Counted from the first letter of the stretch, positions 542-45,417 are shown. The stretch: DNA of 45,417 bases from a virus (IMGVR_UViG_2706794697_000014); one strand, 5' to 3'. The notes: generated from the letters alone by a model not told the origin. A program made the numbers and translations.

Positions 542-1579
542 TTAACGCTTATCCGCCACCAGTTTGAGCGCGTGTTCCAGCACATTAATGTCTGCACCCG
601 CTTTATGGGCATTTTCACTTAAATAACGCCGCCACTGCCGCGCGCCAGGAATACCCTGGAACAAGCCCAACATATGCCGGGTAATATGGCCGAGATACGT
701 CCCCTGGCTGAGTTCACGCTCAATGTACGGATACATGGCGCGCACTACCGCCACCGGATCGGCATCGGTATCCGAGGAACCAAAGATCTCCCGGTCTACC
801 GCCGCCAGAATACCCGGATTCTGATACGCCTCGCGCCCGACCATCACGCCATCCATATGTTGCAGGTGTGCTTTGGCCTCTTCCAGCGACTTGATACCAC
901 CGTTAATCGACATTGTCAGATGCGGAAAGTCACGCTTCAGTTGATACACACGCGGATAATCGAGTGGCGGGATTTCACGGTTTTCTTTCGGGCTTAACCC
1001 CGAAAGCCAGGCTTTACGTGCGTGGATGATAAACATCTCACACTCGCCTTTGCCGGAAACGGTGTTGATGAAATCGCAGAGAAATTCATAGCTGTCCTGG
1101 TCATCGATGCCAATACGCGTTTTCACCGTCACTGGAATCGACACCACATCGCGCATCGCTTTCACGCAGTCGGCAACCAGCTGCGCATTACCCATCAGAC
1201 ACGCACCAAACATGCCGTTCTGCACCCGGTCAGACGGGCAGCCGACATTCAGGTTGATCTCATCATATCCACGCGCTTCTGCCAGCTTCGCACACTGTGC
1301 CAGCGCCGCCGGATCGCTACCGCCGAGTTGCAACGCTACCGGATGTTCTTCTTCACTGTACGCCAGGTAATCACCTTTACCGTGAATAATCGCCCCTGTG
1401 GTCACCATTTCGGTATACAGCAACGTATTGCGGGAAAGCAGACGCAAGAAATAGCGGCAATGTCTGTCCGTCCAGTCGAGCATAGGAGCAATGCTAAACC
1501 GAGAACTCCAGTAAGCGCCAGTTTTTTCAGGCATCACGCTGGTTTGATTAGTTTTCTGTGTTTCAGGATTATCGTGCAT
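542..1579 (-). CDS. dusA: tRNA-dihydrouridine synthase A (host; 5' end adjoins prophage)
   Basis: 345-aa ORF with Dus/TIM-barrel sequence ([28 protein letters not shown]) recognised as E. coli DusA. Confidence 0.9.
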
Positions 1580-1611
1580 TTTTGAACATTTCAGGCTATT
1601 TTTCTCGCGTT

Positions 1612-1647
1612 AGGTTCCCGCACAGGTTCCCACGCTTTATGGGAACC
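1612..1647. promoter_or_regulatory. three rGGTTCCC repeats (two direct, one inverted) in the dusA-int divergent intergenic region
   Basis: aGGTTCCC at 1612-1619 and 1624-1631, inverted GGGAACC at 1641-1647, between divergent start codons. Confidence 0.3.
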
Positions 1648-1667
1648 CGAAATAACGAGGTCGTGTA

Positions 1668-2765
1668 ATGGCGTACTATAACATAGAGAAACGACTAAAA
1701 TCCGATGGCACACCACGCTATCGCTGTAATGTGATTATCAAAGAAAAAGGTGTTATCACTTACAGGGAAAGCAAAACATTCCCTAAACATGCTCATGCCA
1801 AAACATGGGGCGCACAGAAAGTGATGGAATTAGATCTATATGGCATTCCATCATCAAATGCTGTTGACGGACTTACAGTCCGTGACTTACTACACAAATA
1901 TTTAAATGACCCAAATGCCGGAGGTAAAGCAGGCCGTACTAAAAGATATGTGCTGGAACTGCTTATGGATAGTGACATCTCCGCGATCAAACTATCTGAA
2001 CTGACAGAAAATGACGTAATTGAACATTGCAGGCTAAGAAACAACGCTGGTGCAGGCCCAGCAACAGTCAGCCACGATGTTAGTTATCTTGGCAGTGTTC
2101 TGGATGCGGCAAAACCTGTATACGGAATCAATTACACATCAAACCCGGCGAAAAGCGCTCGTCCATATCTACTTAAACTCGGTTTGATTGGTAAATCAAA
2201 CCGTCGTAATCGTAGACCAGCATCTGATGAACTGAACATGCTCATTGAAGGCCTTCAACAACGATCTACTCATAAATGCTCAAAAATTCCGTTCGTTGAT
2301 ATCCTCAAATTTTCTGTGTGGTCCTGTATGCGAATCGGAGAAGTATGCCGGTTACGATGGGAAGATCTCGACCAGGAACAAAAATCTATACTAGTAAGAG
2401 ACAGGAAAGATCCACGTAAAAAGGAAGGCAACCATATGAAAGTTGCCTTGCTTGGGGAAGCCTGGGATATCGTCCAGCGACAACCCAAAAAATCAGAATT
2501 CATTTTTCCATATAACAGCACTTCTGTTACCGCAGGATTTCAGAGGGTAAGAAGCAAATTAGGTATTAAAGATCTGAGATACCATGATTTGCGTAGAGAA
2601 GGGGCAAGTCGCTTATTTGAGGCTGGTTTTAGTATTGAGGAAGTCGCTCAGGTTACAGGGCATCGTTCATTAAACGTGCTATGGCAGGTATATACCGAAC
2701 TGTATCCGAAATCTTTACATAATCGTTTTGAAGAACTCCAAAGGAGCAGAAATAAGACCTCTTGA
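1668..2765 (+). CDS. int: tyrosine-type phage integrase (dusA-associated)
   Basis: 365-aa ORF, GAGG RBS 8-11 nt upstream; C-terminal catalytic region (HDLRREGASRLFEAGFSIEEVAQVTGHRS) typical of tyrosine recombinases; divergent from dusA 5' end. Confidence 0.9.
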   Translation: MAYYNIEKRLKSDGTPRYRCNVIIKEKGVITYRESKTFPKHAHAKTWGAQKVMELDLYGIPSSNAVDGLTVRDLLHKYLNDPNAGGKAGRTKRYVLELLMDSDISAIKLSELTENDVIEHCRLRNNAGAGPATVSHDVSYLGSVLDAAKPVYGINYTSNPAKSARPYLLKLGLIGKSNRRNRRPASDELNMLIEGLQQRSTHKCSKIPFVDILKFSVWSCMRIGEVCRLRWEDLDQEQKSILVRDRKDPRKKEGNHMKVALLGEAWDIVQRQPKKSEFIFPYNSTSVTAGFQRVRSKLGIKDLRYHDLRREGASRLFEAGFSIEEVAQVTGHRSLNVLWQVYTELYPKSLHNRFEELQRSRNKTS

Positions 2766-3296: not shown

Positions 3297-3848
3297 ATGC
3301 ATGACAATATTTGGTTTACATATAAAGCACGTATCCAAGCGCACCATCGACTAGAATGGCTTGAAAAACACTCTCAATTTATCCTCGTTTGGTATGCTAT
3401 ATTGAGTGCGGTACTTTCAATTGTAACGTTGCGATTTCCAAAGGTTCTAGGAGATAATACAGATGTCGTTGCGGCGATACTTTCAGTGGCTCTACTGGGT
3501 ATTTCTCTGATCGTATCTAACCTAGATTTTCGTGGTCGAGCAATAGCCATGAGAAGGAATTATATTGCACTACAGCGACTCTATTTTGACATTACCACCA
3601 GTCAACAGTTATCTCTTGAACAGAAAGAAAAATATTTTAATTTGCTCAATGAGGTTGAGAATCACCGTGACATAGATGATAAAATTTCAAGGGTAACTCA
3701 AGTTGGACTTAAGACGAGGATCCCCACACAAAAAGAAAAAATAATTGTTATTTTATGGATATTACTTCGAATATTTATTACTGCCGCACTTTATATACTC
3801 CCATTAATATATCTTTGGATTGACTATGACTGCAAGCAGAATTTTTAA
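3297..3848 (+). CDS. small multi-pass membrane protein, putative effector partner of the RT
   Basis: 183-aa ORF, AGGA RBS; hydrophobic segments FILVWYAILSAVLSIVTL, VVAAILSVALLGISLIVSNL, IIVILWILLRIFITAALYILPLIYLWI; AT-rich; overlaps RT start by 23 nt. Confidence 0.7.
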   Translation: MHDNIWFTYKARIQAHHRLEWLEKHSQFILVWYAILSAVLSIVTLRFPKVLGDNTDVVAAILSVALLGISLIVSNLDFRGRAIAMRRNYIALQRLYFDITTSQQLSLEQKEKYFNLLNEVENHRDIDDKISRVTQVGLKTRIPTQKEKIIVILWILLRIFITAALYILPLIYLWIDYDCKQNF

Positions 3849-5196
3849 AAAGTCATTCTCGAAAAAAAATCTTCTAAAAGTATACTCTGAAAAAATCAAA
3901 GAATCAGGAGCGATTGGCATAGATCGGATTCGCCCATCAAAACTTGATTTGACAATAAAAAATGAGATCACTTTCATTTTTGAAAAGGTTAATTCTGGCA
4001 ATTACAAATTTACAGCATATAAAGAAAAATTAATATCTAAAGGCGCTAACTCTACACCCAGACAGATTTCCATACCAACTGCTAGGGACAGAATTACTCT
4101 TAGAGCTCTCTGTGAATGCCTTACGGAAATATATCCTAAGTCCAGATTAAAACTACCACATACAGTAATTGACTCATTGAAAGAAGCATTAAACAACAGT
4201 CTATATGCTGAATATGCAAAAATAGATCTTAAAAGTTTCTATCCTTCAATTGAACATAAATTGATAATTAATGCAATAAAAAATAAAATTAGAAAAAAAG
4301 AAATTAGACAGTTAATAACATCATCATTAATCGTGCCTACTGTAAGTGGAACCACAGGAAGCAAAGGTATCCCTAATAATACCAGAGGAGTACCTCAGGG
4401 ATTAGCGATATCAAACATTTTAGCTGAAATATCACTATCTAATTTCGATGATGAAATCAATAAAATGCATGACATATGGTACATGCGATACGTTGATGAC
4501 ATTCTTATTTTAACACCAAAATATCAAGCAACAAAAATAGCTTCTCATATCATTGATAAGCTTCAATCATTAAATTTAAACCCACATCCATTAAATGAAG
4601 AGAACTCAAAATCCAAAGTAGGCAGCTTGGATGAAAGTTTCAACTTTTTGGGCTACCACATAAAAAATCGAGAATTATTGATAAAACATGAGAGCATTCT
4701 TAGATTTGAGTCATCCTTAGCAAAAATTTTTACTGCATATAGACACGCTCTACTACAAGCTAAAAATAAGCGCGATAAAGAACGAGCTGTTGCATATTGT
4801 CAGTGGAAACTAAATCTTAGAATTACGGGATGTGTGTTTGAAGGTAAACGATTGGGATGGGTATCGTACTTCTCACAAATAACGTCAACAGCTCAACTTC
4901 GAGCTGTTAATCATACGATCAATAATCTTATCCGCCGATTCGGCCTTTCATCAGAAATAAAACCAAAGTCTTTGATTAAAACTTTCTATGAACTCCGCAG
5001 GGGTAGAGCGGAGACTTTTAAATACATACCTAACTTTGACAATCTACATATATCTCAGAAACGAGAAATTGTTTCTATGTGGATAGGGAAAGAGAATGAA
5101 AAAAAACTTAGCAATAGTGAAATAGAGAGAAAATTTAAATTTAAAATTGCGAAATCAGTAAAAGAGCTTGAAGAGGACATTTCAGGGATATCATAG
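3826..5196 (+). CDS. reverse transcriptase (defence-associated/retron-like; family unassigned)
   Basis: RT motifs in translation: ISIPTARDRITLRAL (motif 1-2), KIDLKSFYPSIEH (3), GVPQGLAISNILAEI (4), YMRYVDDILIL with YVDD catalytic box (5), FNFLGYHI (7), thumb-like GKRLGWVSYF; ATG at 3826 within track ORF 3820..5196. Confidence 0.85.
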   Translation: MTASRIFKKSFSKKNLLKVYSEKIKESGAIGIDRIRPSKLDLTIKNEITFIFEKVNSGNYKFTAYKEKLISKGANSTPRQISIPTARDRITLRALCECLTEIYPKSRLKLPHTVIDSLKEALNNSLYAEYAKIDLKSFYPSIEHKLIINAIKNKIRKKEIRQLITSSLIVPTVSGTTGSKGIPNNTRGVPQGLAISNILAEISLSNFDDEINKMHDIWYMRYVDDILILTPKYQATKIASHIIDKLQSLNLNPHPLNEENSKSKVGSLDESFNFLGYHIKNRELLIKHESILRFESSLAKIFTAYRHALLQAKNKRDKERAVAYCQWKLNLRITGCVFEGKRLGWVSYFSQITSTAQLRAVNHTINNLIRRFGLSSEIKPKSLIKTFYELRRGRAETFKYIPNFDNLHISQKREIVSMWIGKENEKKLSNSEIERKFKFKIAKSVKELEEDISGIS

Positions 5197-9836: not shown

Positions 9837-12800
9837 TCAACGAATACTGATGCCGGAAGCGGCTTTTTTGGTCACAATCACCGTACAGTCGGTGATATTG
9901 CCTGCCCCCTGATTGCCTTTCTGGAAAATCTTAAACTCCAGAGTGACGCTTCCCCTGCCACTCGGCATATCAATAACTGCACTGTAACTACCGGGAATGG
10001 CCCCTTTAGTTTCTCTGGATGCGATTAATACGCCGTTTTTGCGAACTTCAAAACCATAACCCGTGTATCGCGTGCCTCCTGGGTTATTTCCGCTCCCCGG
10101 ATCGTCATACGCTATACCGTTAAAAATAATGGGCGGAATAATAATCTGGCGGTCAAAGTTATGATCATCGCTGATGGTGACTGTAACCGTACCGTTTGGT
10201 GTTTCCGTGTTACCCCACGTACCGACTTTTTTCGGGAAGGCTTTTGATACAGCTTTAACGAAATCCCCTCTGACCTGGGTCGCCTCCAGCATGCCCTTAA
10301 TCGTACAGTTCTGGTTAATCGTGACATTGTTGAGCGTCCCTGAATTTGCATTCACATTACCGCTGATATCCGCATTTTTAGCGGTCAGCTTTCCGTCTGG
10401 TGTCAGGGAAAATGCCGGCGGATTTCCACCGCTGGTAATGGTGGGAGCCGTCAGGCGTTTCAGGAACACGTCATTCATGAATATCTGGTTGCCCTGCGCC
10501 ACAAACATCGGCGTTTCATTCCCGTTTGCCGGGTCAATAAACGCGATACGGTTAGCGGCAACCAGAAACTGGCTCAGTTTGCCTTCCTCCGTGTCCTCCA
10601 TGCTGAGGCCAATACCCGCGACATAATGTTTGCCGTCTTTGGTCTGCTCAATTTTGACGCCCCACATGGCATTCCACTTATCGTTGGCGTCCTTCCACTC
10701 TTTCGAAAACTCCTCCAGTCTGCTGGCGTTATCCTCCGTCAGGTCGACTTTTTCCAGCAGCTCCTGGCCGAGATGGGATTCGGTTATCTGGCCTTTGAAA
10801 AAATCCAGGTAACCTTCCGCATCATCGCTCGCCCGACCGACAGCCTCCACGAATGCTGATTTGCCGACGGTGTTCACACTGCGGATATAAAAGTAATAAT
10901 CATGGCCCGGCTTAATATTGATACTGGCGGCTATCCAGTACAGCCCCGTGCCAAGGTAGCGGGCTGTGGTTTCAACCTGCCTGATATCCGCAATCCGTTT
11001 TTCCGAGAACCAGAACTCAAACTGTACCGTCGGGTCATAAACCGCAAGATGCGGCGTGGCGGTTATCTGAAAATAGCCCGGCGTCAGCTCAATCCGCGAC
11101 GGCGCTGCCGGTGCGGCAATCCGGAACGATACCGACGCCGGATCGCCCTGCTGCCCCCACGCATTTACTGCCCGGACTGTCAGCCTGTAGTTCCCCAGAG
11201 CCAGTTGTGTGAAGCGGTAAGTGGTTTCCGTCGTCCGGGCCGTGCTGACCAGCCGCTCACGGCCGTCATCCGCTGCCACGGTCAGGCGAAGCAGGAAGCT
11301 CACGCCCTTCACCACCTTCGGCGTGTCCCAGCGGGCCAGCACCTGGTATTCCCCGCTGTCTGCGGTGACTTCTGCGGTCAGGTGCTGCACCGCTGGCGGC
11401 GTGACACCATTTACCGTGCCGCTCTGGTCGCCGTCAAAGTGCGCCCCGTTATCCACGATGGCCTCTTTTTCCGGTACATGCTGCACGGCAGTGATGGCAT
11501 ACGTGCCGTCGTCGTTCTCACGGATACTCACGCAGCGGAACAGGCGCTGGCGCAGCGTCGGCAGCTTCAGCCCCCATACGCTGTATTCAGCAACGCCGTC
11601 AGGAACACGGCTCACTTTCACCTTCACGCCGTCGGTGACGGACTGAACCTCCACGCTGACCGGACTCCCCTGCCCGTCAACCAGGCTTATCAGCGTGGTG
11701 CCGGAAGATGGCAGCGTGATTTCACGGTCGAGCGTCAGCGTCCGGGTCTGGCTGTTTACCGCCAGCACGCGCCCGCCGGTGCGGATACCGGCATAGTCAT
11801 CATCGCAGATTTCAATGACATCGCCCGGTACATGACGAAGCCCTTCAGCACCCACGCTGAAGTCCACGGTCTGCGTTTCCAGCAGTTCTGTTTTAATCAG
11901 CCACAGCCCGGCGCGGTGTGCCTGCCCCCGGCTGGTACAGCCAAAAGCATCCATCTTCGTGACGTTACGACCGTAACGGGCAATGGCCTGCGTGTCCTCC
12001 ACAAGCTCTGTCGCCGTCTCCCAGCCGTTATTCGGGTCAATCCAGTTCACCTCAACGGCATTATGGCGGTCCTTCAGGGCGCTGAANNNNNNNNNNNNNN
12101 NNNNNNNNNNNNNNNNNNNNNNNNNNNNNNNNNNNNNNNNNNNNNNNNNNNNNNNNNNNNNNNNNNNNNNNNNNNNNNNNNNNNNNNNNNNNNNNNNNNN
12201 NNNNNNNNNNNNNNNNNNNNNNNNNNNNNNNNNNNNNNNNNNNNNNNNNNNNNNNNNNNNNNNNNNNNNNNNNNNNNNNNNNNNNNNNNNNNNNNNNNNN
12301 NNNNNNNNNNNNNNNNNNNNNNNNNNNCGGCATCACCACATTACTGCGGTTATAGGTCCACACCTTATCCGACGGTCGGTCCTGCACGAACGTCAGCGTC
12401 TGCCCGTTCCATACCGGCATACAGCGCATCGCCGAGCAGAAATCACTGAGCACATCCCACGCCTTGCGCTGTGTGGTCAGGTACGCATTACAGGTGATGC
12501 GCGGCTCCGTGCCGCCAAAACCGTCCGGCACCGACTGATCGCAATGCTGGCCGATGACATACAGCGCCCATTTGTCCACATCCGCCGCACCAAGACGTTT
12601 CCCCATGCCGTAGCGCGGATGGGTCAGCATATCCCACAGACACCAGGCCATGTTGTTGCTGTATGCTGGCTTAAACGTTCCGTCCCAGATACCGCTGTAT
12701 TGCCGCGTCTGCGGGTTATAGCTCGACGGCACCTGCAGAATGCGCCCGCGCAGATGATAATTACGGCTCACCTGCTGGCTGCCGAACTGCTCCGAATCCA

Positions 12801-14818: not shown

Positions 14819-15299
14819 TTACTGCGAAAGTTTGTTAATGGAAAGGAAGCCGCCAAAGTTGCCGACGTTATTGCGAAACTTACAGCCGCTCAGGCATTTG
14901 CTGCATTTATCCTTCGTGATATCGGACGTCGGCTGATCATATTCATCCGCGACCGCCGGACCGTGATAACCGCACTCATCGCCGCGATAGGTCCAGGTGC
15001 AGGTGTTGGCCAGCATGATACGTCCCGGAAAAACGGCACCGTCCGTTTCCGTCGGCGTGGACAGTACAANNNNNNNNNNNNNNNNNNNNNNNNNNNNNNN
15101 NNNNNNNNNNNNNNNNNNNNNNNNNNNNNNNNNNCTGTCGCCCCTGCCAGGTGACCGGCTCACCTTTTTCGTTCTGCTCATTACAGAAAAAATAACGTTC
15201 TCCACCGACCTCTGTCAGATCGATTTCCCAGAGCACCACCTGGGCTGACTGAGTGAGGCGTGTCGTCTCATGATGTGTTTCCTGTGGAATATCCTGCAT
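14819..15299 (-). CDS. L: minor tail protein L (interrupted by N-run)
   Basis: N-terminal piece MQDIPQETHHETTRLTQSAQVVLWEIDLTEVGGERYFFCNEQNEKGEPVTWQGRQ and C-terminal piece ...CKFRNNVGNFGGFLSINKLSQ match lambda L; N-run 15070-15134 breaks the frame. Confidence 0.8.
15070..15134. other. assembly gap (65 N)
   Basis: run of n within L. Confidence 1.
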
Positions 15300-30127: not shown

Positions 30128-30583
30128 NNNNNNNNNNNNNNNNNNNNNNNNNNNNNNNNNNNNNNNNNNNNNNNNNNNNNNNNNNNNNNNNNNNNNNNNN
30201 NNNNNNNNNNNNNNNNNNNNNNNNNNNNNNNNNNNNNNNNNNNNNNNNNNNNNNNNNNNNNNNNNNNNNNNNNNNNNNNNNNNNNNNNNNNNNNNNNNNN
30301 NNNNNNNNNNNNNNNNNNNNNNNNNNNNNNNNNNNNNNNNNNNNNNNNNNNNNNNNNNNNNNNNNNNNNNNNNNNNNNNNNNNNNNNNNNNNNNNNNNNN
30401 NNNNNNNNNNNNNNNNNNNNNNNNNNNNNNNNNNNNNNNNNNNNNNNNNNNNNNNNNNNNNNNNNNNNNNNNNNNNNNNNNNNNNNNNNNNNNNNNNNNN
30501 NNNNNNNNNNNNNNNNNNNNNNNNNNNNNNNNNNNNNNNNNNNNNNNNNNNNNNNNNNNNNNNNNNNNNNNNNNNNNNNNNNN
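30128..30583. other. assembly gap (456 N)
   Basis: run of n between endolysin and holin 5' end. Confidence 1.
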
Positions 30584-30655
30584 AAACCAGTACCCGGCAC
30601 TACCTGCTGAGGTGCCATAGGCGACACCCGTTGTTAACTTATCCATGGATTTCAT
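30584..30655 (-). CDS. S: pinholin (S21-like) N-terminal fragment, truncated by N-run
   Basis: [24 protein letters not shown] matches the N-terminus of phage 21-type pinholin as recalled; remainder lies in the gap. Confidence 0.6.
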
Positions 30656-30722
30656 AACCCCACCTCGCAGATGCGGGTGCTGTGTAATGGAAATAAAAAG
30701 GCCACCTGACGTGGCCACCAGA

Positions 30723-31775
30723 TTATTTCCCCACCAGCTCGTTTATCTCTTTCACTGTCTGATTAAACCGCTCTGACTCAAGCTCAACACCTAAGGCCCG
30801 ACGCCCCAGCGCCATTGCTGCTTTTATTGTGGAACCGGATCCCATAAAAAAATCAGCAACCAGATCACCTGGTCGACTACTGGCATTGATTATTTGCCTG
30901 AGCATATCCGCCGGTTTCTCACACGGATGTTTCCCCGGGTAGAACTGAACGGGTTTATGCATCCAGACATCGGTATAAGGCACGGAGACTGATACGGAGA
31001 AATAGCGCCGGAGAGATTTAAACTCATCCAGCAATTCAGAATATTTACGATTCAGTGAATCATAAGATGCCACCAGCTGGTGGTGTGGTTGTTCCAGTTG
31101 TTGTTCCTGAAACTTCTCTGCCGCTATACGGGAAAACAGTGCCTGTAACTTCCGATAGTCAGCCTCATTCGGCAACTGCCACTGACTGGCACCAAACCAG
31201 TGGGAAACCATATTTTTCTTACCTGTGGCTTCGGCAATTTGTTTTGCCGTTATACCCAGTTCGGCACGAGCATCCCTGAAATACGATATCAGCGGTGCCA
31301 TTATGTGCTGTTTGAGTTCCCTTTCTTTTGCCGCATAGCCGTCACTTTTGCCGCGATATGGCCCCTGGTAATGTTCAGCAAACAGAACGCGCTCTGTGGC
31401 AGGAAAATATGCGCGCAGACTTTCTTTATTACACCCATTCCAACGTCCGGACGGCTTCGCCCAGATGATATGGTTAAGCACGTTGAAACGTTCACGCATC
31501 ATGATCTCAATATCAGATGCCAGGCGATGCCCACAGAACAGGTAAAGGCTTCCGGCAGGTTTCAACACCCGCCAGAACTGGGCCAGACAGTGGTCCAGCC
31601 ACTTAAGGTAATCTTCGTCCCCTTTCCACTGATTGTCCCAACCGTTGGGTTTCACCTTGAAGTAAGGCGGATCGGTAACAATCAGGTCAATGGAATCATC
31701 AGGCAGGGACTGAATAAAATGCAGGCAATCAGCGTTGATTAAATCAACACTGTTTATTTTTACAGTATTTTTCAT
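30723..31775 (-). CDS. orphan DNA N6-adenine/N4-cytosine methyltransferase (beta-class)
   Basis: 350-aa ORF with DPPY (LIVTDPPYF) near N-terminus and AdoMet motif DFFMGSGST near C-terminus. Confidence 0.8.
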
Positions 31776-31925
31776 GGATCAGTAAGCGTAACTCTGGTAG
31801 GCTCACTCTGCTTTTGCGCTAAAGCAGTGGGCCGTGGTTCGCTTGTGACCAGTAAGCATGAGCGAATGGCTGGCAGGTGCTACCAACACCCACCAGCCGC
31901 CCATTTTCACAGCAGGAAACCGCCA

Positions 31926-32153
31926 TTACTGGCAGCGTCTGAATTTATTCCCGTACCCGCCGTTATCCTTCGCCAGACCCGCCAGAACTAACTGAGTCAG
32001 TATTAACTGGCACCGGGCTTCGCTTACTCCGGTAGTTCTCGTCATCATGCGTGGCGTTACCCACTTGTCAGCAGGTAAGAAATGAAGGACTGCGGCGGCG
32101 GTTTCTGTCATATCTTGCTGTTTTAGCATGTCTTTTTCCCTTCTGGTTAACAT
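31926..32153 (-). CDS. hypothetical small protein
   Basis: 75-aa ORF only; no recognisable motif. Confidence 0.3.
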   Translation of the reverse strand: MLTRREKDMLKQQDMTETAAAVLHFLPADKWVTPRMMTRTTGVSEARCQLILTQLVLAGLAKDNGGYGNKFRRCQ

Positions 32154-32250: not shown

Positions 32251-32277
32251 CAAAAAACCCGCTCAGTGGCGGGTTGC
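32251..32277 (-). terminator. intrinsic terminator downstream of lipoprotein moron (copy of tR'-like hairpin)
   Basis: minus strand reads AACCCGC-CACTGA-GCGGGTT then T6; 27/28 identical to the hairpin at 32927-32955. Confidence 0.45.
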
Positions 32278-32352: not shown

Positions 32353-32778
32353 TTAAAACTCTGCTTTCATTTTATCCGGGAATTTTTTATTTGCAGCATA
32401 ATAACTACCAAGTACATAAGCGTTCATTTGCTGCTCTACATCAACCCGACATGCCGCACTAGAACAAGCTCCACTGATAAGCCCAAAAGAACTCCCTTTA
32501 GCAGAGAGATCAGCTTTGATTTCCTCTACAGTGTTTTTCCCCATAGCAACTACACACCCTGTCACAATATATCTAGCTTTCACATCATCCATGCTAAGGA
32601 TAGTAGTTTTCGCAATTTTGCTGTATCCATCATTTTTATAAACATCCATGGCAAACGCACGGCAATCTGTATAATACGGACTTGCTTTAACTTGCGAATA
32701 CTCAGGTAATTTCATACCTGCACAACCAACTAAACAAAAACCTATCGCTGCTATTAATACCTTTTTCATTACAGTCAT
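32353..32778 (-). CDS. lipoprotein (moron)
   Basis: 141-aa ORF with signal peptide and lipobox MKKVLIAAIGFCLVGCAG; AT-rich; flanked by near-identical terminator hairpins. Confidence 0.65.
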   Translation of the reverse strand: MTVMKKVLIAAIGFCLVGCAGMKLPEYSQVKASPYYTDCRAFAMDVYKNDGYSKIAKTTILSMDDVKARYIVTGCVVAMGKNTVEEIKADLSAKGSSFGLISGACSSAACRVDVEQQMNAYVLGSYYAANKKFPDKMKAEF

Positions 32779-32926: not shown

Positions 32927-32955
32927 CAAAAAACCCGCTCAGCGGCGGGTTTTTG
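32927..32955 (-). terminator. tR'-like intrinsic terminator about 100 nt downstream of Q
   Basis: minus strand reads AACCCGC-CGCTGA-GCGGGTT then T6. Confidence 0.5.
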
Positions 32956-33057
32956 ACATTTACCAACGGTAGACATACAAGGCCCATCGTTGAGAAAATC
33001 TTATCCATATTTTTTGAAAAATGCAAGTATCACGTCGACATCTTCGGCGAAAATTAT

Positions 33058-33810
33058 CTATCTTGTCACTTTTCTCAATTGCGATTCAGCATACGCTTCT
33101 TCCTGCCAGCACTTTGTAACCAGTTTATTAATAACGTCTGCATATCCTTTGTACCACTGATAATCCGTCAGGTCCGGTACCAGTTTCTGGACATGATGCC
33201 GCGCCAGTGTGGTTGGTAAACGGCTAAACCGGTTGCCATTGCAACGCCCACAAATCTTATAAACAGGCACACCATGAAGCCGGGTTCTTTTTTCATCCAG
33301 GACAATACCTTTACCCTTACACCCTCTGCACGCTGTGCTGACTTCTCCCTTACCATGGCAATGCTGACATAGTTCCTTCACCCACTCTTCCTTGATAACA
33401 GATTCCCCGCTTCTGGAGTGTTTCACCACTTCGCGCAATACATTATGAAATCCAGTACCAGCACAATGCTCACAGCGAGCCTTACTTGCCGCAGACCTGG
33501 AATAATCAGCAAAGGCAAAATTCACAAGGTAAGGGATGATCTGTAACCGGGTTTCTTCACTCAATTTGTTCAATGTCGGGTTATCCAGTGCCATCGCGTA
33601 ATTGAGCAGACCTTCAATCGCAAATTGAGGATCCTGAACACCAACTTTTGCCAGGAATAAGGCAAACCCAAGCGGTGCTTTCGACTGCACCATCCCCTGC
33701 GCAGCCATCACATCCGTAATCGTTAAACCACCTGAGCCTGTCGCCGGTGCGTCATCGCTCAATTTTGGAGATTTTGGGGAGTAATATTTTGGTAAGGCTT
33801 CAAGGTTCAT
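33058..33810 (-). CDS. late-gene antitermination protein Q-like
   Basis: Cys/His zinc-binding motifs CEHCAGTG...CQHCHGKG...CRGCKGKG, position immediately upstream of tR' and lysis/structural genes. Confidence 0.6.
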   Translation of the reverse strand: MNLEALPKYYSPKSPKLSDDAPATGSGGLTITDVMAAQGMVQSKAPLGFALFLAKVGVQDPQFAIEGLLNYAMALDNPTLNKLSEETRLQIIPYLVNFAFADYSRSAASKARCEHCAGTGFHNVLREVVKHSRSGESVIKEEWVKELCQHCHGKGEVSTACRGCKGKGIVLDEKRTRLHGVPVYKICGRCNGNRFSRLPTTLARHHVQKLVPDLTDYQWYKGYADVINKLVTKCWQEEAYAESQLRKVTR

Positions 33811-33823
33811 GCTCGTTCTCCAC

Positions 33824-34819
33824 TTACGCCAATACGCCAATTGCCAGCGCACGATCGATAAAACGAAATATCAGCTCCAGCTGGGAGCCATACTTCTCTT
33901 CAAATGCCACGGTATCCGCATGCAGCTCGTCGTGATGCTTTCTGCACAAAGGCAACACAAAGAGGTCATGCGCTTTTGTACCCATTCCACCCTGACCGTG
34001 GCCTATCAGGTGGTGGGGATCATCAGCAGGCTTTCCACAACATGCACACGGCTGTGTCTTAACCCAGCGCGTGTACTTTTCATTAACCCAGCGGCGGCGT
34101 TTTGGGCGTAACATAAAAGACTCCGGCGACTCCGGATCCACTTTCAGCGCCAGCACCTTTTTTGCCTTATCCTGGATGATGCTGGTGGCAGGAACCGAAG
34201 GCACAAGGTCACTTTCCCGGGTGACAGACGGCACAACAGGCTTTGGTAATCTCAGTGCCTTACGGGCTGCACTTTCCGGTAAGGCATCCGCCAGGTCATT
34301 ACGAATCAGCCACCAGCACAGTTCCGGCATTGTCACAACGTGACTATCATCAAAACCGAGATCCCGACGCACAACAGACAACACCCAGCGGGCACAGTTA
34401 TCCGTTGCCATTGATTCCAGCCGTTCCGTGAACTGATCGCGCAGCTGGTTATCGCAGTGCCAGCACAGACGGATTGCGCCCGGAGCGTGTCGCATTGTGG
34501 TCATGTTCTCGCTGTGCCAGTCGGAATGAGGCCACTGGCAGCCTTTTTCACGAAGTAACCAGCTTTCAAGACATTCCACGCCACCAGCACGACGGATCAC
34601 TGCCTCATTGCGGAACACGGCCCGAACGGCAGGATCATCCGCCAGCGGTTGTGATGCCGCCGGAACGGCACCACTGGCGAAAGATGAATAACGTTCCGGC
34701 TCAGGCTCCAGCAGAACACGCCCCTGCATAAACAGGGGCATCAGCTCTGAACCTGGCCTGAACAATACGATCCCCATACGCGGGGCAATTTCAGGGGTCA
34801 GTAGTGCTCTCACGGTCAC
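33824..34819 (-). CDS. DUF968-like prophage protein
   Basis: 331-aa ORF; C-terminal Cys/His cluster CACCGKPADDPHHLIGHGQGGMGTKAHD...CRKHHDELH recalled from DUF968-type E. coli prophage proteins. Confidence 0.5.
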   Translation of the reverse strand: MTVRALLTPEIAPRMGIVLFRPGSELMPLFMQGRVLLEPEPERYSSFASGAVPAASQPLADDPAVRAVFRNEAVIRRAGGVECLESWLLREKGCQWPHSDWHSENMTTMRHAPGAIRLCWHCDNQLRDQFTERLESMATDNCARWVLSVVRRDLGFDDSHVVTMPELCWWLIRNDLADALPESAARKALRLPKPVVPSVTRESDLVPSVPATSIIQDKAKKVLALKVDPESPESFMLRPKRRRWVNEKYTRWVKTQPCACCGKPADDPHHLIGHGQGGMGTKAHDLFVLPLCRKHHDELHADTVAFEEKYGSQLELIFRFIDRALAIGVLA

Positions 34820-35649: not shown

Positions 35650-36039
35650 TCAGGCGGCTGCACCCGCCGGTTTCTCATACTTACTGATAGTGATCTCGAC
35701 CTTCCCTTTCTGGATAACCGGTCCCCACTCCACCAGCATTCTTTTCACCTGGCTGTCGTCTTCCCACACCCCCGCGTGGGTCAGGGCGTCAAACAGCGCC
35801 TTGTTATAGTTGTCCAGATCGCGGATCCGGTTATCCGGAGGAAACAACACGATCTCCACTGAAGCAGGTGCCGACGTTGGTTTTGGCAGACGACGTAACT
35901 GCTCAACTATTGCTGCGCACGCCGCGCTCTGAAATTTTCGCCCCGCCGCGCTTATCAGGCTCTTACCAGCAAATGCCCCTTTGTTGGGGTGTCGCCAGTA
36001 CGTGTTCACGCTGGGCGGGAAAGGCAGGATCAGCTTCAT
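35650..36039 (-). CDS. rusA: Holliday junction resolvase RusA
   Basis: 129-aa product MKLILPFPPSVNTYWRH...DLDNYNKALFDALTHAGVWEDDSQV with conserved RusA acidic residues. Confidence 0.8.
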   Translation of the reverse strand: MKLILPFPPSVNTYWRHPNKGAFAGKSLISAAGRKFQSAACAAIVEQLRRLPKPTSAPASVEIVLFPPDNRIRDLDNYNKALFDALTHAGVWEDDSQVKRMLVEWGPVIQKGKVEITISKYEKPAGAAA

Positions 36040-36362
36040 ACTTTCAGGCCTCTCTCATGTAACCAGTGGGTTGCACGCAGCCTGGCGTTTTCCTCACCGG
36101 CAAGCAGTGAGCGGATAATCCCGACCGCCTCGCTGTCGTCGTCCTTCACCGCGGTATGAAGAGTGATACCCCGGGCCATGCCACGCTTTATCGTGATGAC
36201 GCCTTTTTTCTCCAGTGCGCGAAGATGTTCCACCGCTGCATTCACTGAACGGTATCCCAGCATGGTTGCCACCTCCTGATTGGTTGGCGGGAAGCCACGT
36301 TCTTTCTGGTAAGAAATCAGCATATCCAGCACCTGCTGCTGGCATTGAGTTAACGTCGTCAT
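36036..36362 (-). CDS. LexA N-terminal DNA-binding domain protein (no S24 peptidase domain)
   Basis: 108-aa product LTQCQQQVLDMLISYQKERGFPPTNQEVATMLGYRSVNAAVEHLRALEKKGVITI aligns by eye with the LexA winged-helix domain. Confidence 0.65.
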   Translation of the reverse strand: MTTLTQCQQQVLDMLISYQKERGFPPTNQEVATMLGYRSVNAAVEHLRALEKKGVITIKRGMARGITLHTAVKDDDSEAVGIIRSLLAGEENARLRATHWLHERGLKV

Positions 36363-37012
36363 GCCGCCATCTCCCTGACCAGTTTTTCCGCCTGCTGGCG
36401 AACCTGCGCCAGAAACGCCTCACCACATGCCTCAAGTTCATCGCGCCCGATGTAGCTGATTGCCGGTCCCTTCCAGGTCTTGTCGAAAACAGCAATAGCA
36501 CCAGCGAAGAAAGCGCCTGTCGGCACCTGCTTCTCGTCCTTCGGGATAAACCAGGCAGGCAGTTCAAAACCAATACGCCCGCGAATAAAAGCAATATGAT
36601 CTGCATCTTCCGGCCACCACACTTCGCTGGTGGCAGCTTTGATCAGGAAAACATAGCGTCCGCCCTTATCACGCATGGCACTGGCATGTTTCATGATGTA
36701 ACGCATGCCGGTGATGTATTGCCCTTCATGCTGACTGGCGCGGCTGTACGGGGGATTACCAAAGGCAGCACCTTTAAGCTCCGCAAGACGTTCAGACCAG
36801 TCATGCGCCAGCGCGTTGTCTTCCGCAGTGTAATAAGCGGCACATTTGGCGTTATCACCATCAGTGAACAGATCCAGAACAAACGGGCCAAACAGGGTGT
36901 TAATTCCCCAGAAAATGTTATCCGGCGTGCGCCACTGATCGCCCACTTCCTTCAGTTCATGGGCTGGTTTGTTCCGCAGCTCCACCAGCGCCTGGCAATA
37001 TTTATTACTCAT
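36359..37012 (-). CDS. phage Dam-family DNA N6-adenine methyltransferase
   Basis: NPPY motif (AAFGNPPYS) in about 217-aa product starting MSNKYCQALVEL. Confidence 0.75.
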   Translation of the reverse strand: MSNKYCQALVELRNKPAHELKEVGDQWRTPDNIFWGINTLFGPFVLDLFTDGDNAKCAAYYTAEDNALAHDWSERLAELKGAAFGNPPYSRASQHEGQYITGMRYIMKHASAMRDKGGRYVFLIKAATSEVWWPEDADHIAFIRGRIGFELPAWFIPKDEKQVPTGAFFAGAIAVFDKTWKGPAISYIGRDELEACGEAFLAQVRQQAEKLVREMAA

Positions 37013-40265: not shown

Positions 40266-40940
40266 ATGAAAACAGTCCATGACATCCGGCGGTCTAACGC
40301 CAGAAAACTGAGAGATGGTGTTGGCGGGAATTCTTCCTTTGCCACCATGATTGATCGCGAGCCAACCCAGACCAGCAGGTTTATGGGAGATGGTGCAACT
40401 AAAAATATCGGTGACAGCATGGCACGGCACATCGAAAAATGTTTCGACCTGCCTGTCGGATGGCTTGATCAAGAACACCAGACAACGAACATCACAAAAA
40501 AACCTGACGTTTCAATCACTAACAAACAAATAACGTTAGTCCCTGTCATATCATGGGTACAGGCCGGAGCATGGAAAGAAGTTGGCTATTCTGAGGTTGA
40601 TTTGAGCACAGCAGAAACTTATCCCTGCCCTGTACCCTGTGGCGAAATGACTTATATCTTGCGGGTGATTGGTGATTCAATGATTGATGAGTACCGCCCG
40701 GGAGACATGATTTTTGTTGATCCTGAAGTCCCTGCCTGCCACGGTGACGACGTTATTGCATTGATGCACGATACAGGCGAAACCACCTTCAAGCGGTTGA
40801 TAGAAGATGGAACACAGCGTTATCTCAAAGCATTAAACCCAAACTGGCCTGAGCCTTACATTAAGATTAACGGTAATTGCTCTATAATTGGTACAGTGAT
40901 TTTCTCAGGAAAACCAAGAAGATACATAATAAAGGCCTAA
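40266..40940 (+). CDS. cI: CI-like repressor (S24 LexA-type peptidase family)
   Basis: C-terminal S24 domain (VIGDSMIDEYRPGDMIFVD, TFKRL) preceded by DNA-binding N-terminus. Confidence 0.8.
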   Translation: MKTVHDIRRSNARKLRDGVGGNSSFATMIDREPTQTSRFMGDGATKNIGDSMARHIEKCFDLPVGWLDQEHQTTNITKKPDVSITNKQITLVPVISWVQAGAWKEVGYSEVDLSTAETYPCPVPCGEMTYILRVIGDSMIDEYRPGDMIFVDPEVPACHGDDVIALMHDTGETTFKRLIEDGTQRYLKALNPNWPEPYIKINGNCSIIGTVIFSGKPRRYIIKA

Positions 40941-44428: not shown

Positions 44429-44848
44429 TTACTCATCATCAATAGATGATACGCAATATTTATTTTTAAATTTAAGGTTCTTTGGCGTAACTTCATCAGA
44501 TATATCAAAACCGTCCAGAATTCTATTGAATGTAGCTTCTGGCATATCATCATGAACGGAAATCTCACCCGATCGCTGCTTTCTAACCATGTTATCCACT
44601 CGCCAAATTATAGCTTCAGCGTAAACAACATAACTTGGATGCTTGATAAAGCGATGATCACCAGAATTCAAGACGCAAGACGGATCGTGGGGGACACCAT
44701 CCTTGATACTAGAAATATTAACAACTAAAACACAATAACAATCGTTAACGGGGTAATAAACAGGATCATTACAAATCACATGAAGATGATTGCATGGCCC
44801 AGTTGGGGCAAGCACAGTTCCTTTCCTGTATGGCTGATAATCCGTCAT
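44429..44848 (-). CDS. hypothetical protein, candidate toxin partner of Panacea-like gene
   Basis: 139-aa ORF overlapping upstream gene by 4 nt (ATGA coupling). Confidence 0.5.
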   Translation of the reverse strand: MTDYQPYRKGTVLAPTGPCNHLHVICNDPVYYPVNDCYCVLVVNISSIKDGVPHDPSCVLNSGDHRFIKHPSYVVYAEAIIWRVDNMVRKQRSGEISVHDDMPEATFNRILDGFDISDEVTPKNLKFKNKYCVSSIDDE

Positions 44849-45417
44849 GATAATTGCAAAGAAAATTCCTTAAGTTTCTGAGATTCTTCCATTTTGCCAA
44901 TTATACGATTAGCCTCATCCTCGCTTTTACCCTCACTGATCAGCATTTCTTTCAGGTCTATAGGCTTACGAGAATTGCCAGGATTGTGCCACTCTGGACA
45001 AACGCTTTCTAAATGCGTCATGTTTGCGAGATCAAATCGGTTCATATGCCCATACAGAGAATAGATTTCATCTAAAATCCGGATATCTGCACGGCTCAAC
45101 TCATCAAAGACCTCGTCTGCATCCATTTCCCTCGGATCTGAACGCAACAACACATCATGCCCGTTCGTCTCTATCAGGTTGTACCAGTAGTCACCAATAC
45201 CTTCAGCCTTACCACGAATCAAGTTCAGCGTATTCGACATGACTGGACCAAATTTCATAGAGTAAAGGCTATCTTCGCCGATCATCCTGCCATGCTTCAA
45301 AATCGACTTGCGGTTAGACAGATAGAGCAGCTTCATCAATTTCAGATATGCCATGCGCCCACCTCGCTTAAGAAGTAGGTATGCAGCCATTTGAGCTACT
45401 TTTTCTTCGCAAAACAT
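44845..45417 (-). CDS. Panacea/DUF4065 (SocA/GepA)-like protein; start coincides with window edge
   Basis: N-terminus MFCEEKVAQMAAYLLLKRGGRMAYLKLMKLLYLSNR resembles DUF4065 phage-associated proteins as recalled; ORF begins at the last codon of the window, so may be 5' truncated. Confidence 0.45.
   Translation of the reverse strand: MFCEEKVAQMAAYLLLKRGGRMAYLKLMKLLYLSNRKSILKHGRMIGEDSLYSMKFGPVMSNTLNLIRGKAEGIGDYWYNLIETNGHDVLLRSDPREMDADEVFDELSRADIRILDEIYSLYGHMNRFDLANMTHLESVCPEWHNPGNSRKPIDLKEMLISEGKSEDEANRIIGKMEESQKLKEFSLQLS

What the first reader, a model, noticed from the sequence alone, without database searches (positions are those of the whole stretch)
30723..31775. Orphan beta-class DNA methyltransferase between the lysis cassette and Q
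Seen directly: DPPY motif near the N-terminus and FxGxG-type AdoMet motif near the C-terminus (circularly permuted order), no adjacent restriction endonuclease ORF. Inference: phage-encoded methylation for restriction evasion or packaging control. A second, Dam-type enzyme lies at 36359-37012.
Basis: partly seen in the sequence, partly recalled or inferred. Interest (0 to 1): 0.4.

Follow-up and report, generated by a model that had tools for sequence, protein, structure and literature searches.

The report
Non-specific phage adenine methylase with leader
The gene is a real orphan DNA methyltransferase, but it belongs to the already characterised M.EcoGII family, which methylates every adenine rather than a motif; the one apparently new thing is a conserved, structured RNA leader in front of it that probably keeps this toxic enzyme in check.

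Summary
ORF 30723-31775 (minus strand, 350 aa) is a beta-class amino-methyltransferase (Pfam PF01555, E=2e-42) with DPPY at residues 35-38 and FMGSG at 310-314. It lies between Q and the holin and has no endonuclease partner. A Dam-type gene at 36359-37012 is also real.

The interpretation needs one correction. The protein aligns end to end with M.EcoGII at about 81% identity, and at 89% with an assayed reconstructed ancestor. M.EcoGII methylates adenine in any sequence context, is silent in lysogens and is toxic when expressed. The proposed test, comparing lysogen and cured methylomes for a new motif, would therefore probably find nothing and wrongly refute the assignment.

The gene is common: it is present in 1255 of 5426 complete E. 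coli genomes and is annotated in phages mEp460, cdtI and SfV.

One thing appears to be undescribed. A leader of about 137 nt (31776-31912) abuts the start codon. It is 86-92% identical in loci where the coding sequence is 73-76% identical. It folds into three helices supported by covariation, one of which pairs the 14 nt before the AUG. It has no Rfam match and is not coding. In 114 of 118 evaluable viral contigs it is followed by this MTase type. I infer translational control, which is untested.

The parts
30723..31775 (-). EcoGII-family beta-class adenine methyltransferase CDS, 350 aa. Catalytic core at about residues 1-134 and 261-350. Helical HTH target-recognition domain at about 160-237, flanked by charged linkers.
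   Evidence: ORF. PF01555 E=2e-42. 81% identity to M.EcoGII and 89% to Anc291 over the full length. Per-domain identity 70-89%. dN/dS 0.04-0.12. 100% identical gene annotated as DNA-methyltransferase in E. coli A14.
31776..31912 (-). Conserved structured 5' leader that abuts the MTase AUG. P1 is a long hairpin at 31858-31904. P2 is a long-range helix pairing 31840-31851 with 31776-31788, the 14 nt before the AUG. P3 is an internal hairpin at 31799-31834.
   Evidence: 86-92% nt identity where the CDS is 73-76% identical. Consensus fold. 93% of cells paired against 29-41% when slid; 17 pairs with changes on both sides against 8.2+-1.7 in shuffles, 0/500. MFE -56.9 kcal/mol, z=-3.56. No Rfam family. 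Not coding. Single CM hit in the window, 143.5 bits. 114 of 118 evaluable viral matches are followed by this MTase type.
30700..30716 (-). Intrinsic terminator-like hairpin (GGCCAC-GTCAG-GTGGCC plus T-run) directly after the MTase stop and before the holin.
   Evidence: Scan, sequence. The same feature is annotated as a terminator in phage Ayreon.
31926..32153 (-). Small ORF (75 aa from the first ATG; PGAP aa), phrog_331, function unknown. It ends 150 nt before the MTase start. It is an optional companion of the module.
   Evidence: Present upstream in 51 of 79 genome loci.
32256..32275 (-). Strong intrinsic terminator (AACCCGC-CACTGA-GCGGGTT plus T-run) between the lipoprotein ORF and the small ORF. 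It is a near-identical copy of the terminator at 32928-32951.
   Evidence: Annotated as a terminator in Ayreon.
32353..32778 (-). AT-rich 141-aa lipoprotein-like ORF (phrog_4748, unknown function). It looks like a moron inserted between two copies of the same terminator.
32928..32951 (-). Candidate tR' terminator (AACCCGC-CGCTGA-GCGGGTT plus T-run), about 45 nt downstream of the candidate late promoter.
   Evidence: Read from the sequence. Ayreon annotates a terminator at the equivalent place.
32998..33026 (-). Candidate late promoter pR' (TTGCAT-17 nt-TAAGAT) just downstream of Q. Assigned by position only. It is below the threshold of the promoter scan.
   Evidence: Read from the sequence. 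Not listed by the scan. Its resemblance to phage 82 pR' is from memory and was not tested.
33058..33852 (-). Late antiterminator Q (PF03589 family).
   Evidence: Pfam E=7e-54, phrog_127, PGAP 'antitermination protein'.
36359..37012 (-). Second methyltransferase, in the early (nin) region: phage Dam-type N6-adenine MTase.
   Evidence: PF05869 E=1e-45 and TIGR01712 E=1.7e-76. PGAP annotation.

Best explanation
The gene encodes a member of the M.EcoGII family of prophage-borne beta-class adenine methyltransferases. Shown here: an intact enzyme with all catalytic and AdoMet motifs. It is collinear with M.EcoGII at about 81% identity, including the helix-turn-helix recognition domain and the linkers. 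It is under strong purifying selection. It sits in a fixed position downstream of Q and upstream of the lysis (or Shiga toxin) genes. Inferred from published work on M.EcoGII, M.EcoGI and reconstructed ancestors: it transfers methyl groups from AdoMet to N6 of adenine in essentially any sequence context, probably as a dimer that binds nucleic acid non-specifically. Inferred from gene position: it is silent in the lysogen, because three intrinsic terminators lie between the late promoter region and the lysis genes, two of them upstream of the MTase. It would be made only when Q-modified RNA polymerase reads through late in lytic growth. Progeny DNA would then be heavily adenine-methylated before packaging and protected against many adenine-sensitive restriction systems in the next host. 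A second layer of control is suggested by a conserved three-helix leader RNA directly upstream. Its P2 helix pairs the 14 nt before the AUG, and no Shine-Dalgarno sequence is visible. The leader most likely limits or times translation of an enzyme that is toxic when over-expressed. Its existence and conservation are shown here. Its regulatory mechanism is inferred.
For: Identity and motifs. M.EcoGII and M.EcoGI are non-specific for all A, silent in the native strain and harmful when constitutively expressed: PMC5778455 and the review PMC12707154. All reconstructed ancestors between M.EcoGII and its last common ancestor with the site-specific M.PflMI were active, and no motif was found for M.EcoGII, Anc291 or SUPREM: PMC11551740. 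The published domain layout (core 1-134/260-349, four-helix HTH TRD 160-237) matches the Pfam insert and the helices predicted here. Residue 179 is Q, as in the M.EcoGII clade. Purifying selection: dN/dS 0.04-0.12. Conserved position behind two unrelated Q families and ahead of different holins or stx, never with a nuclease. Terminators. Leader.
Against: No activity, specificity or expression was measured for this protein. 19% of residues differ from M.EcoGII, including 18 of 78 in the recognition domain, and specificity can in principle change with few substitutions. The AlphaFold model is of moderate quality only (mean pLDDT 63.5). The late promoter is assigned by eye and falls below the scan threshold. 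No paper found here shows that any phage of this group actually carries hypermethylated DNA in its virions. The leader structure was derived from the same alignment on which it was scored, which favours it. The sequences are related, so shuffle controls overstate significance.
Confidence: 0.78

Rival explanations
1. It is a sequence-specific orphan methyltransferase with a discrete target motif. It would protect against one or a few restriction systems, or act in gene regulation.
For: PGAP labels most homologues 'site-specific DNA-methyltransferase'. The nearest confirmed site-specific relative, M.PflMI, has a similar overall predicted fold (PMC11551740). 18 of 78 recognition-domain residues differ from M.EcoGII.
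Against: The PGAP name is generic and is not based on an assay. The protein is 81% identical to M.EcoGII and 89% identical to the assayed ancestor Anc291, and it aligns without gaps through the linkers that M.PflMI lacks. The HTH core of the recognition domain is nearly unchanged.
Confidence: 0.1
2. Its main natural substrate is RNA (host or phage transcripts) or single-stranded DNA replication intermediates, not duplex progeny DNA.
For: M.EcoGII methylates ssDNA almost as well as dsDNA, and it also methylates RNA and RNA:DNA hybrids (PMC5778455). Ancestors in the family have higher RNA activity.
Against: M.EcoGII's initial rate on RNA is about 100-fold lower than on DNA (Table S3 of PMC11551740). 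This protein has Q179, the residue type linked to lower RNA activity. Late-operon placement next to the packaging and lysis genes fits DNA protection.
Confidence: 0.05
3. It has a housekeeping role in the phage cycle, such as packaging, replication timing or late-gene regulation, as Dam methylation does for P1 pac sites.
For: P1 provides a precedent.
Against: Those roles need site-specific marks. The phage already carries a separate Dam-type enzyme in its early region. Some lineages have lost or replaced the MTase, which suggests it is an accessory gene.
Confidence: 0.04
4. Rivals for the leader. (a) It is an independent small RNA or an RNase III processing site rather than a translational operator. 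(b) It is a riboswitch, for example for AdoMet or AdoHcy. (c) It is conserved only because the module moved horizontally not long ago.
For: (a) P1 is a hairpin of about 19 bp with an internal loop, and one lineage keeps P1 alone. (b) Several unpaired stretches are invariant. (c) The module is clearly mobile.
Against: (a) No promoter-like site lies just upstream, and the element always ends at the AUG. (c) Synonymous sites of the adjacent gene are saturated while the leader differs by only 8-14%, and the stems show compensatory changes.
Confidence: 0.3

Closest known systems
M.EcoGII and M.EcoGI (E. coli O104:H4 C227-11 prophages; Murray et al. 2018, PMC5778455)
   Same: Beta-class motif order, length (349-350 aa), collinear alignment at about 81% identity, HTH recognition domain and charged linkers, prophage location, orphan status. 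A 93%-identical relative of M.EcoGII (P0017, locus L004) has the same leader and the same position behind Q.
   Different: About 69 residue differences. Activity and non-specificity were not measured for this protein. Here the gene precedes the holin, whereas in the Stx phage it precedes the stx genes.
M.PflMI (CCANNNNNTGG), the nearest relative with confirmed site specificity (as reported in PMC11551740)
   Same: Same beta-class core, and a similar predicted recognition domain.
   Different: It is reported to lack the highly charged interdomain linker. The window protein keeps that linker, aligning without gaps to M.EcoGII through 135-159 and 238-260. I did not have the M.PflMI sequence to compare directly.
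Hia5-type promiscuous adenine methyltransferases (alpha class; cited in PMC5778455 as Drozdz et al.)
   Same: Phage-associated adenine methylation with little or no sequence preference.
   Different: Opposite motif order (FxGxG first, DPPY last). They are an unrelated lineage.
Phage Mu com-mom (from my own knowledge; mom is cited in PMC12707154 as silent in lysogens and toxic)
   Same: A toxic phage DNA-modification gene expressed only late. Its translation start is held in an RNA hairpin, and a small gene lies directly upstream.
   Different: Mom is not an AdoMet methyltransferase. Com is a zinc-finger activator that overlaps mom. Here the small ORF is absent from a third of loci and shows no link to the leader. 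The resemblance is in the working principle only and was not tested.
YhdJ (NF008572) and CcrM (NF050803) beta-class adenine MTases
   Same: Same Pfam domain. Partial matches to the N- and C-terminal core segments.
   Different: Scores are far below the equivalog cutoffs (109.9 against 292, and 68.1 against 830). The recognition domain is unrelated.

Membership tests
Beta-class N6/N4 amino-methyltransferases (PF01555) | Domain match above the curated threshold | tested here: met
   145.9 bits against a cutoff of 26.7, E=2.2e-42
Beta-class N6/N4 amino-methyltransferases (PF01555) | Motif IV (D/S-PP-Y/F) N-terminal to motif I (FxGxG), with the recognition domain between them | tested here: met
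   DPPY at 35-38, FMGSG at 310-314, insert of about 130 aa between the core segments
M.EcoGII family (non-specific adenine MTases of enterobacterial prophages) | Full-length collinear similarity to M.EcoGII with no domain gained or lost | tested here: met
   281/349 identical with 2 gaps. The M.EcoGII sequence was machine-read from a PDF, so a few mismatches may be OCR errors. 89% identity to Anc291.
M.EcoGII family (non-specific adenine MTases of enterobacterial prophages) | Helical HTH recognition domain (about 160-237) joined to the core by charged linkers | tested here: met
   77% identity in 160-237. The linkers are present and 32-39% charged. Helices predicted at 146-254, although the model confidence is moderate. 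Published layout.
M.EcoGII family (non-specific adenine MTases of enterobacterial prophages) | Prophage-borne, with no cognate endonuclease | tested here: met
   Lambdoid prophage context. The neighbours are Q, small ORFs and the holin, here and in eight other loci.
M.EcoGII family (non-specific adenine MTases of enterobacterial prophages) | Methylates adenine in any sequence context | not testable with these tools
   Needs expression followed by SMRT, nanopore or LC-MS analysis. Inferred from relatives only.
M.EcoGII family (non-specific adenine MTases of enterobacterial prophages) | Silent in the lysogen and deleterious when constitutively expressed | not testable with these tools
   Consistent with two terminators between the late promoter region and the gene, and with the leader, but no expression data exist for this gene.
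Type II restriction-modification system | Adjacent cognate restriction endonuclease gene | tested here: not met
   No nuclease domain in the flanking ORFs. None in related loci.
YhdJ and CcrM equivalogs (NCBIfam) | Score above the equivalog cutoff | tested here: not met
   109.9 against 292, and 68.1 against 830
Any described RNA family (Rfam 15), for the leader | Covariance-model match at or near the gathering score | tested here: not met
   Nothing on the leader strand at E<=1 in a 2.6-kb scan. In a 221-nt scan at E<=10, only chance-level hits on the opposite strand or at the upstream edge.
Phage Dam-type N6A MTase (PF05869 / TIGR01712), for the second gene at 36359-37012 | Score above the equivalog cutoff | tested here: met
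   255.3 bits against a cutoff of 97.05

The most novel reading that the evidence does not exclude
The 137-nt leader is a previously undescribed cis-regulatory RNA class dedicated to EcoGII-family methyltransferases. It would act as a translational operator that holds the start region in helix P2 and opens in response to a specific signal. Candidate signals are AdoMet or AdoHcy, the enzyme itself (which binds and methylates RNA), RNase III cleavage of P1, or a phage late protein. This would give a toxic, non-specific methylase a narrow window of expression.
Probability: 0.35. Interest if true: 0.65.

Novelty: new member of a known kind. Interest (0 to 1): 0.42.

Why it matters
The methyltransferase itself is ordinary. 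It is a common prophage gene, present in about 23% of complete E. coli genomes, and it belongs to a family whose founding member is a commercial enzyme. Two practical points follow from that. First, genome pipelines label these genes 'site-specific', which is probably wrong for the whole family. Second, methylome comparisons of lysogens will not reveal them. The leader is what deserves follow-up. How phages restrain an enzyme that would methylate every adenine in the cell has been explained only by 'prophage genes are off'. A conserved, covarying RNA structure that covers the ribosome-binding region makes that question directly testable. It may also explain why the bare ORF is hard to express.

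Tried and rejected
1. tRNA genes between Q and the MTase, as in Stx phages: none found in the window.
2. Known RNA families for the leader: none.
3. Hidden small ORF in the leader: rejected. The frame is not preserved, 1-nt indels are common, and there is no codon periodicity.
4. Attenuator model for the leader: rejected, because neither P1 nor P3 is followed by a U-run.
5. YhdJ or CcrM orthology: rejected on score.
6. The small upstream ORF as an obligatory partner: rejected. It is absent from 28 of 79 loci, many of which still have the leader.
7. Structure prediction gave only a moderate model (pLDDT 63.5). I therefore ran no fold search and relied on the published M.EcoGII models instead.
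8. The supplement of Murray et al. listing homologues is not held. The M.EcoGII sequence was taken from the SUPREM supplement instead.
9. One literature search was too loose and returned noise. Searches for native phage-context expression of EcoGII-type enzymes, or for a described leader, found nothing relevant.
10. The promoter scan found no convincing sigma-70 promoter for the MTase itself. The overall promoter count was no higher than in shuffled sequence.

Full report
OBSERVATION. DPPY lies at residues 35-38. The AdoMet motif F-M-G-S-G lies at 310-314. This is the beta-class order, with motif IV before motif I. Pfam PF01555 (N6_N4_Mtase) matches at E=2.2e-42. The match spans residues 29-341 on a 221-position profile, which leaves an internal insert of about 130 aa where beta-class enzymes carry their target-recognition domain. 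Solved structures match only the two core segments, about residues 9-115 and 282-347: M.RsrI, M.MboIIA, CcrM, DpnA and others. None matches the middle of the protein.

CONTEXT. The window is a lambdoid prophage of E. coli. A Dus gene and an integrase lie at the left end, and a cI-like S24 repressor lies at 40266-40940. Structural, terminase, lysis, Q and nin-region genes are all on the minus strand. The window is 99.97-100% identical to a prophage of E. coli strain A14 across this region, and the MTase gene is 100% identical.

Read on the minus strand, the order of features is as follows:
- Q (33058-33852, PF03589).
- A promoter-like TTGCAT-17-TAAGAT (33026-32998). I assigned this by eye and by position, and it falls below the scan threshold.
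- A hairpin plus T-run terminator (32951-32928).
- An AT-rich lipoprotein-like ORF (32778-32353).
- A near-identical second copy of that terminator (32275-32256).
- A small ORF (32153-31926, phrog_331).
- 150 nt of non-coding sequence.
- The MTase.
- A third terminator (30716-30700).
- The holin, which starts at 30655 and has a clear GAGG ribosome-binding site.

The curated record of phage Ayreon annotates terminators at the same three places. A run of N at 30128-30583 hides most of the holin and the next gene. In A14 these are EssD and a YdfR-family protein. No neighbouring ORF has a nuclease domain.

WHAT IT IS. The gene is 97-99% identical at the DNA level to annotated 'DNA methylase' genes of phages mEp460, cdtI, SfV (orf48) and Ayreon. 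It occurs in 1255 of 5426 complete E. coli genomes, with up to eight copies per genome. Homologues of 62-93% protein identity are spread across the Enterobacterales.

The decisive comparison is with M.EcoGII. Its sequence is given in Table S1 of the SUPREM paper (PMC11551740). The text is machine-read, so a few residues may be OCR errors. The window protein aligns with M.EcoGII from end to end with 281/349 identities and two gaps. It is 89% identical to Anc291, a reconstructed ancestor that was expressed and assayed. Identity by region is 89% in the N-terminal core, 77% in the recognition domain (160-237), 70-72% in the linkers and 76% in the C-terminal core. The helix-turn-helix centre of the recognition domain is almost unchanged.

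[quoted passage not shown] They are not expressed in the native strain and harm the cell when expressed constitutively (PMC5778455; review PMC12707154). The SUPREM paper reports three relevant points. Every ancestor tested between M.EcoGII and its common ancestor with the site-specific M.PflMI was active. No motif was detectable for M.EcoGII, Anc291 or SUPREM. M.PflMI differs chiefly in lacking the charged linker. The window protein keeps that linker and has Q179, the residue typical of the M.EcoGII clade. My AlphaFold run gave only a moderate model (mean pLDDT 63.5). Its secondary structure, with alpha/beta segments at both ends and five helices between 146 and 254, agrees with the published layout.

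The gene is under strong purifying selection. dN/dS is 0.04-0.12 wherever dS can be estimated, and synonymous sites are saturated in most comparisons. It is therefore not a decaying relic.

POSITION IS CONSERVED. In loci from E. coli, Klebsiella and Erwinia the MTase always follows Q and precedes the lysis cassette. This holds even though Q belongs to two unrelated families (PF03589 and PF06530) and the holins and endolysins differ. In a Stx phage carrying a 93%-identical relative of M.EcoGII, the MTase lies directly upstream of the Shiga toxin genes. No locus has an endonuclease next to it. The early-region methyltransferase differs among these phages: PF05869 Dam here, MT-A70 or a D12-class enzyme in Klebsiella.

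HOW IT MOST LIKELY WORKS. The enzyme's chemistry and lack of specificity are inferred from its close relatives. The timing is inferred from gene order. Two intrinsic terminators separate the late promoter region from the MTase, and a third separates it from the holin. By analogy with lambda and phage 82, which is established knowledge and was not tested here, only Q-modified polymerase would read through. This fits the reported silence of M.EcoGII in lysogens. The proposed benefit is broad protection of progeny DNA against restriction enzymes that need unmethylated adenine. That is the published hypothesis for the family. I found no paper that demonstrates it in a phage infection.

Comparing the methylomes of a lysogen and a cured strain would probably show no new motif, and this would not refute the assignment.

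THE UNEXPECTED PART: A CONSERVED LEADER. The 150 nt between the small ORF and the MTase start caught my attention because the spacing was identical in E. coli and Klebsiella loci.
- Conservation. Across 80 genome loci the leader is 86-92% identical to the window's copy where the adjacent coding sequence is only 73-76% identical. It is still 71-80% identical where the coding sequence is 63-66% identical. It always ends at the start codon. Synonymous sites of the gene are saturated, so the leader evolves far more slowly than neutral sequence.
- Structure. An alignment of 58 distinct leaders folds into three helices. P1 is a long 5' hairpin at 31858-31904, with an outer stem AUGGGC/GCUCAU and an inner stem of 12-13 bp. 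P2 is a long-range helix pairing 31840-31851 with 31776-31788, the 14 nt before the AUG. P3 is an internal hairpin at 31799-31834.
- Covariation. On this structure 93.2% of cells are paired, against 29-41% when partners are slid by 1-3 columns. 17 pairs show changes on both sides, against 8.2+-1.7 in shuffles (0 of 500 reach the observed value). 65 cells show double changes, against 14.4. P1's inner stem (9 of 13 pairs) and P2 (5 of 11 pairs) carry most of the covariation.
- Thermodynamics. The window's leader alone folds to -56.9 kcal/mol with z=-3.56, and it reproduces the same helices.
- Not coding. From the invariant ATG the open frame runs 3-44 codons, with 24 of 58 sequences stopping after 7. 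One-nucleotide indels are frequent. Substitutions show no codon periodicity.
- No known family. Rfam has no match.
- Specificity. A covariance model finds one copy in the whole window (143.5 bits). In other loci it matches only at the MTase 5' end. Photorhabdus gives shorter, weak matches, and Erwinia and Pantoea give none. In an independent scan of viral contigs with a 20-nt core of P1, 114 of 121 matches are followed by an EcoGII-type MTase starting 129-132 nt downstream. Three more are cut by the contig end. The remaining four, all one lineage, keep only P1 in front of an unrelated AT-rich ORF.

No Shine-Dalgarno sequence is visible at normal spacing before the MTase AUG, whereas the holin just downstream has one. 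Neither P1 nor P3 is followed by a U-run, so the leader is not a transcription attenuator. The most economical reading is translational control by occlusion of the start region. This resembles the way phage Mu restrains mom, an analogy from my own knowledge that was not tested. Riboswitch, RNase III-site and autoregulatory versions remain open.

Caveats apply. The structure was derived from the alignment on which it was scored. The sequences are related, so the shuffle control is not a probability. No experiment supports any regulatory mechanism.

COMPARISON AND NOVELTY. The enzyme meets every testable criterion for the M.EcoGII family. It fails those for a Type II R-M pair and for the YhdJ and CcrM equivalogs. 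The defining biochemical properties, non-specific methylation and toxicity, cannot be tested with these tools. It is therefore a new, uncharacterised member of a known and common kind. I found no prior description of the leader in Rfam or in the searchable literature. Transcriptome surveys of EHEC prophage regions may have detected it without defining it, and I could not check that.

VERDICT. Confidence that this is an active EcoGII-type non-specific adenine methyltransferase expressed late is about 0.78. Confidence that the leader is a functional structured RNA is about 0.8. Confidence that it acts by repressing translation is about 0.45.

Noticed in passing
window 31776-31912 (-): Conserved three-helix RNA leader abutting the MTase start codon. 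It is better conserved than the coding sequence, covaries, has no Rfam match and is not coding. Helix P2 covers the 14 nt before the AUG.
   Followed up: yes
window 31926-32153 (-): Small ORF (phrog_331, unknown function) with an HTH-like look. It sits upstream of the MTase in 51 of 79 loci. Only its first 35-57 nt or so are conserved at the DNA level across genera, while the rest diverges.
   Followed up: partly
window 32256-32275 and 32928-32951 (-), flanking ORF 32353-32778: Two near-identical intrinsic terminators bracket an AT-rich lipoprotein-like ORF (phrog_4748). This looks as if a moron was inserted together with a duplicate of tR'.
   Followed up: partly
window 3297-5196 (+): Low-GC gene pair next to the integrase: a SLATT 2TM protein (PADLOC RTasSLATT, E=1.5e-56) followed by a reverse transcriptase (RT_UG17, E=1e-158). 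This is a DRT-type candidate anti-phage defence pair carried by the prophage.
   Followed up: partly
window 542-2765: The prophage end lies beside a tRNA-dihydrouridine synthase (Dus) gene (542-1579, minus strand) with a tyrosine integrase next to it (1668-2765, plus strand). This suggests integration at or in the dus gene.
   Followed up: no
window 12087-12327, 15070-15134, 30128-30583: Three runs of N (masked sequence). The third covers most of the holin and the following gene. It is 456 nt here, but the matching stretch in E. coli A14 (EssD plus a YdfR-family gene) is 413 nt, so the hidden sequence differs in length.
   Followed up: partly
L105, L143, L169, L188 (viral contigs): One phage lineage keeps only hairpin P1 of the leader, followed by unrelated AT-rich sequence and a 237-aa ORF in place of the MTase. 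The recombination breakpoint lies right after P1.
   Followed up: partly
L004 4001-6676; L005-L007 2441-3085 / 698-1507: In a Stx phage the EcoGII-type MTase lies directly upstream of the Shiga toxin A and B genes. Related Klebsiella phages pair the late EcoGII-type MTase with a different early-region MTase (MT-A70 or D12 class), where this window has a Dam-type one. So a pairing of one early and one late methylase recurs, with the early partner interchangeable.
   Followed up: no
window 36036-36362 (-) and 44845-45417 (-): A 108-aa ORF that PGAP calls 'LexA repressor' lies immediately downstream of the Dam-type gene. A SocA/Panacea-domain antitoxin-like ORF runs off the right end of the window.
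   Followed up: no
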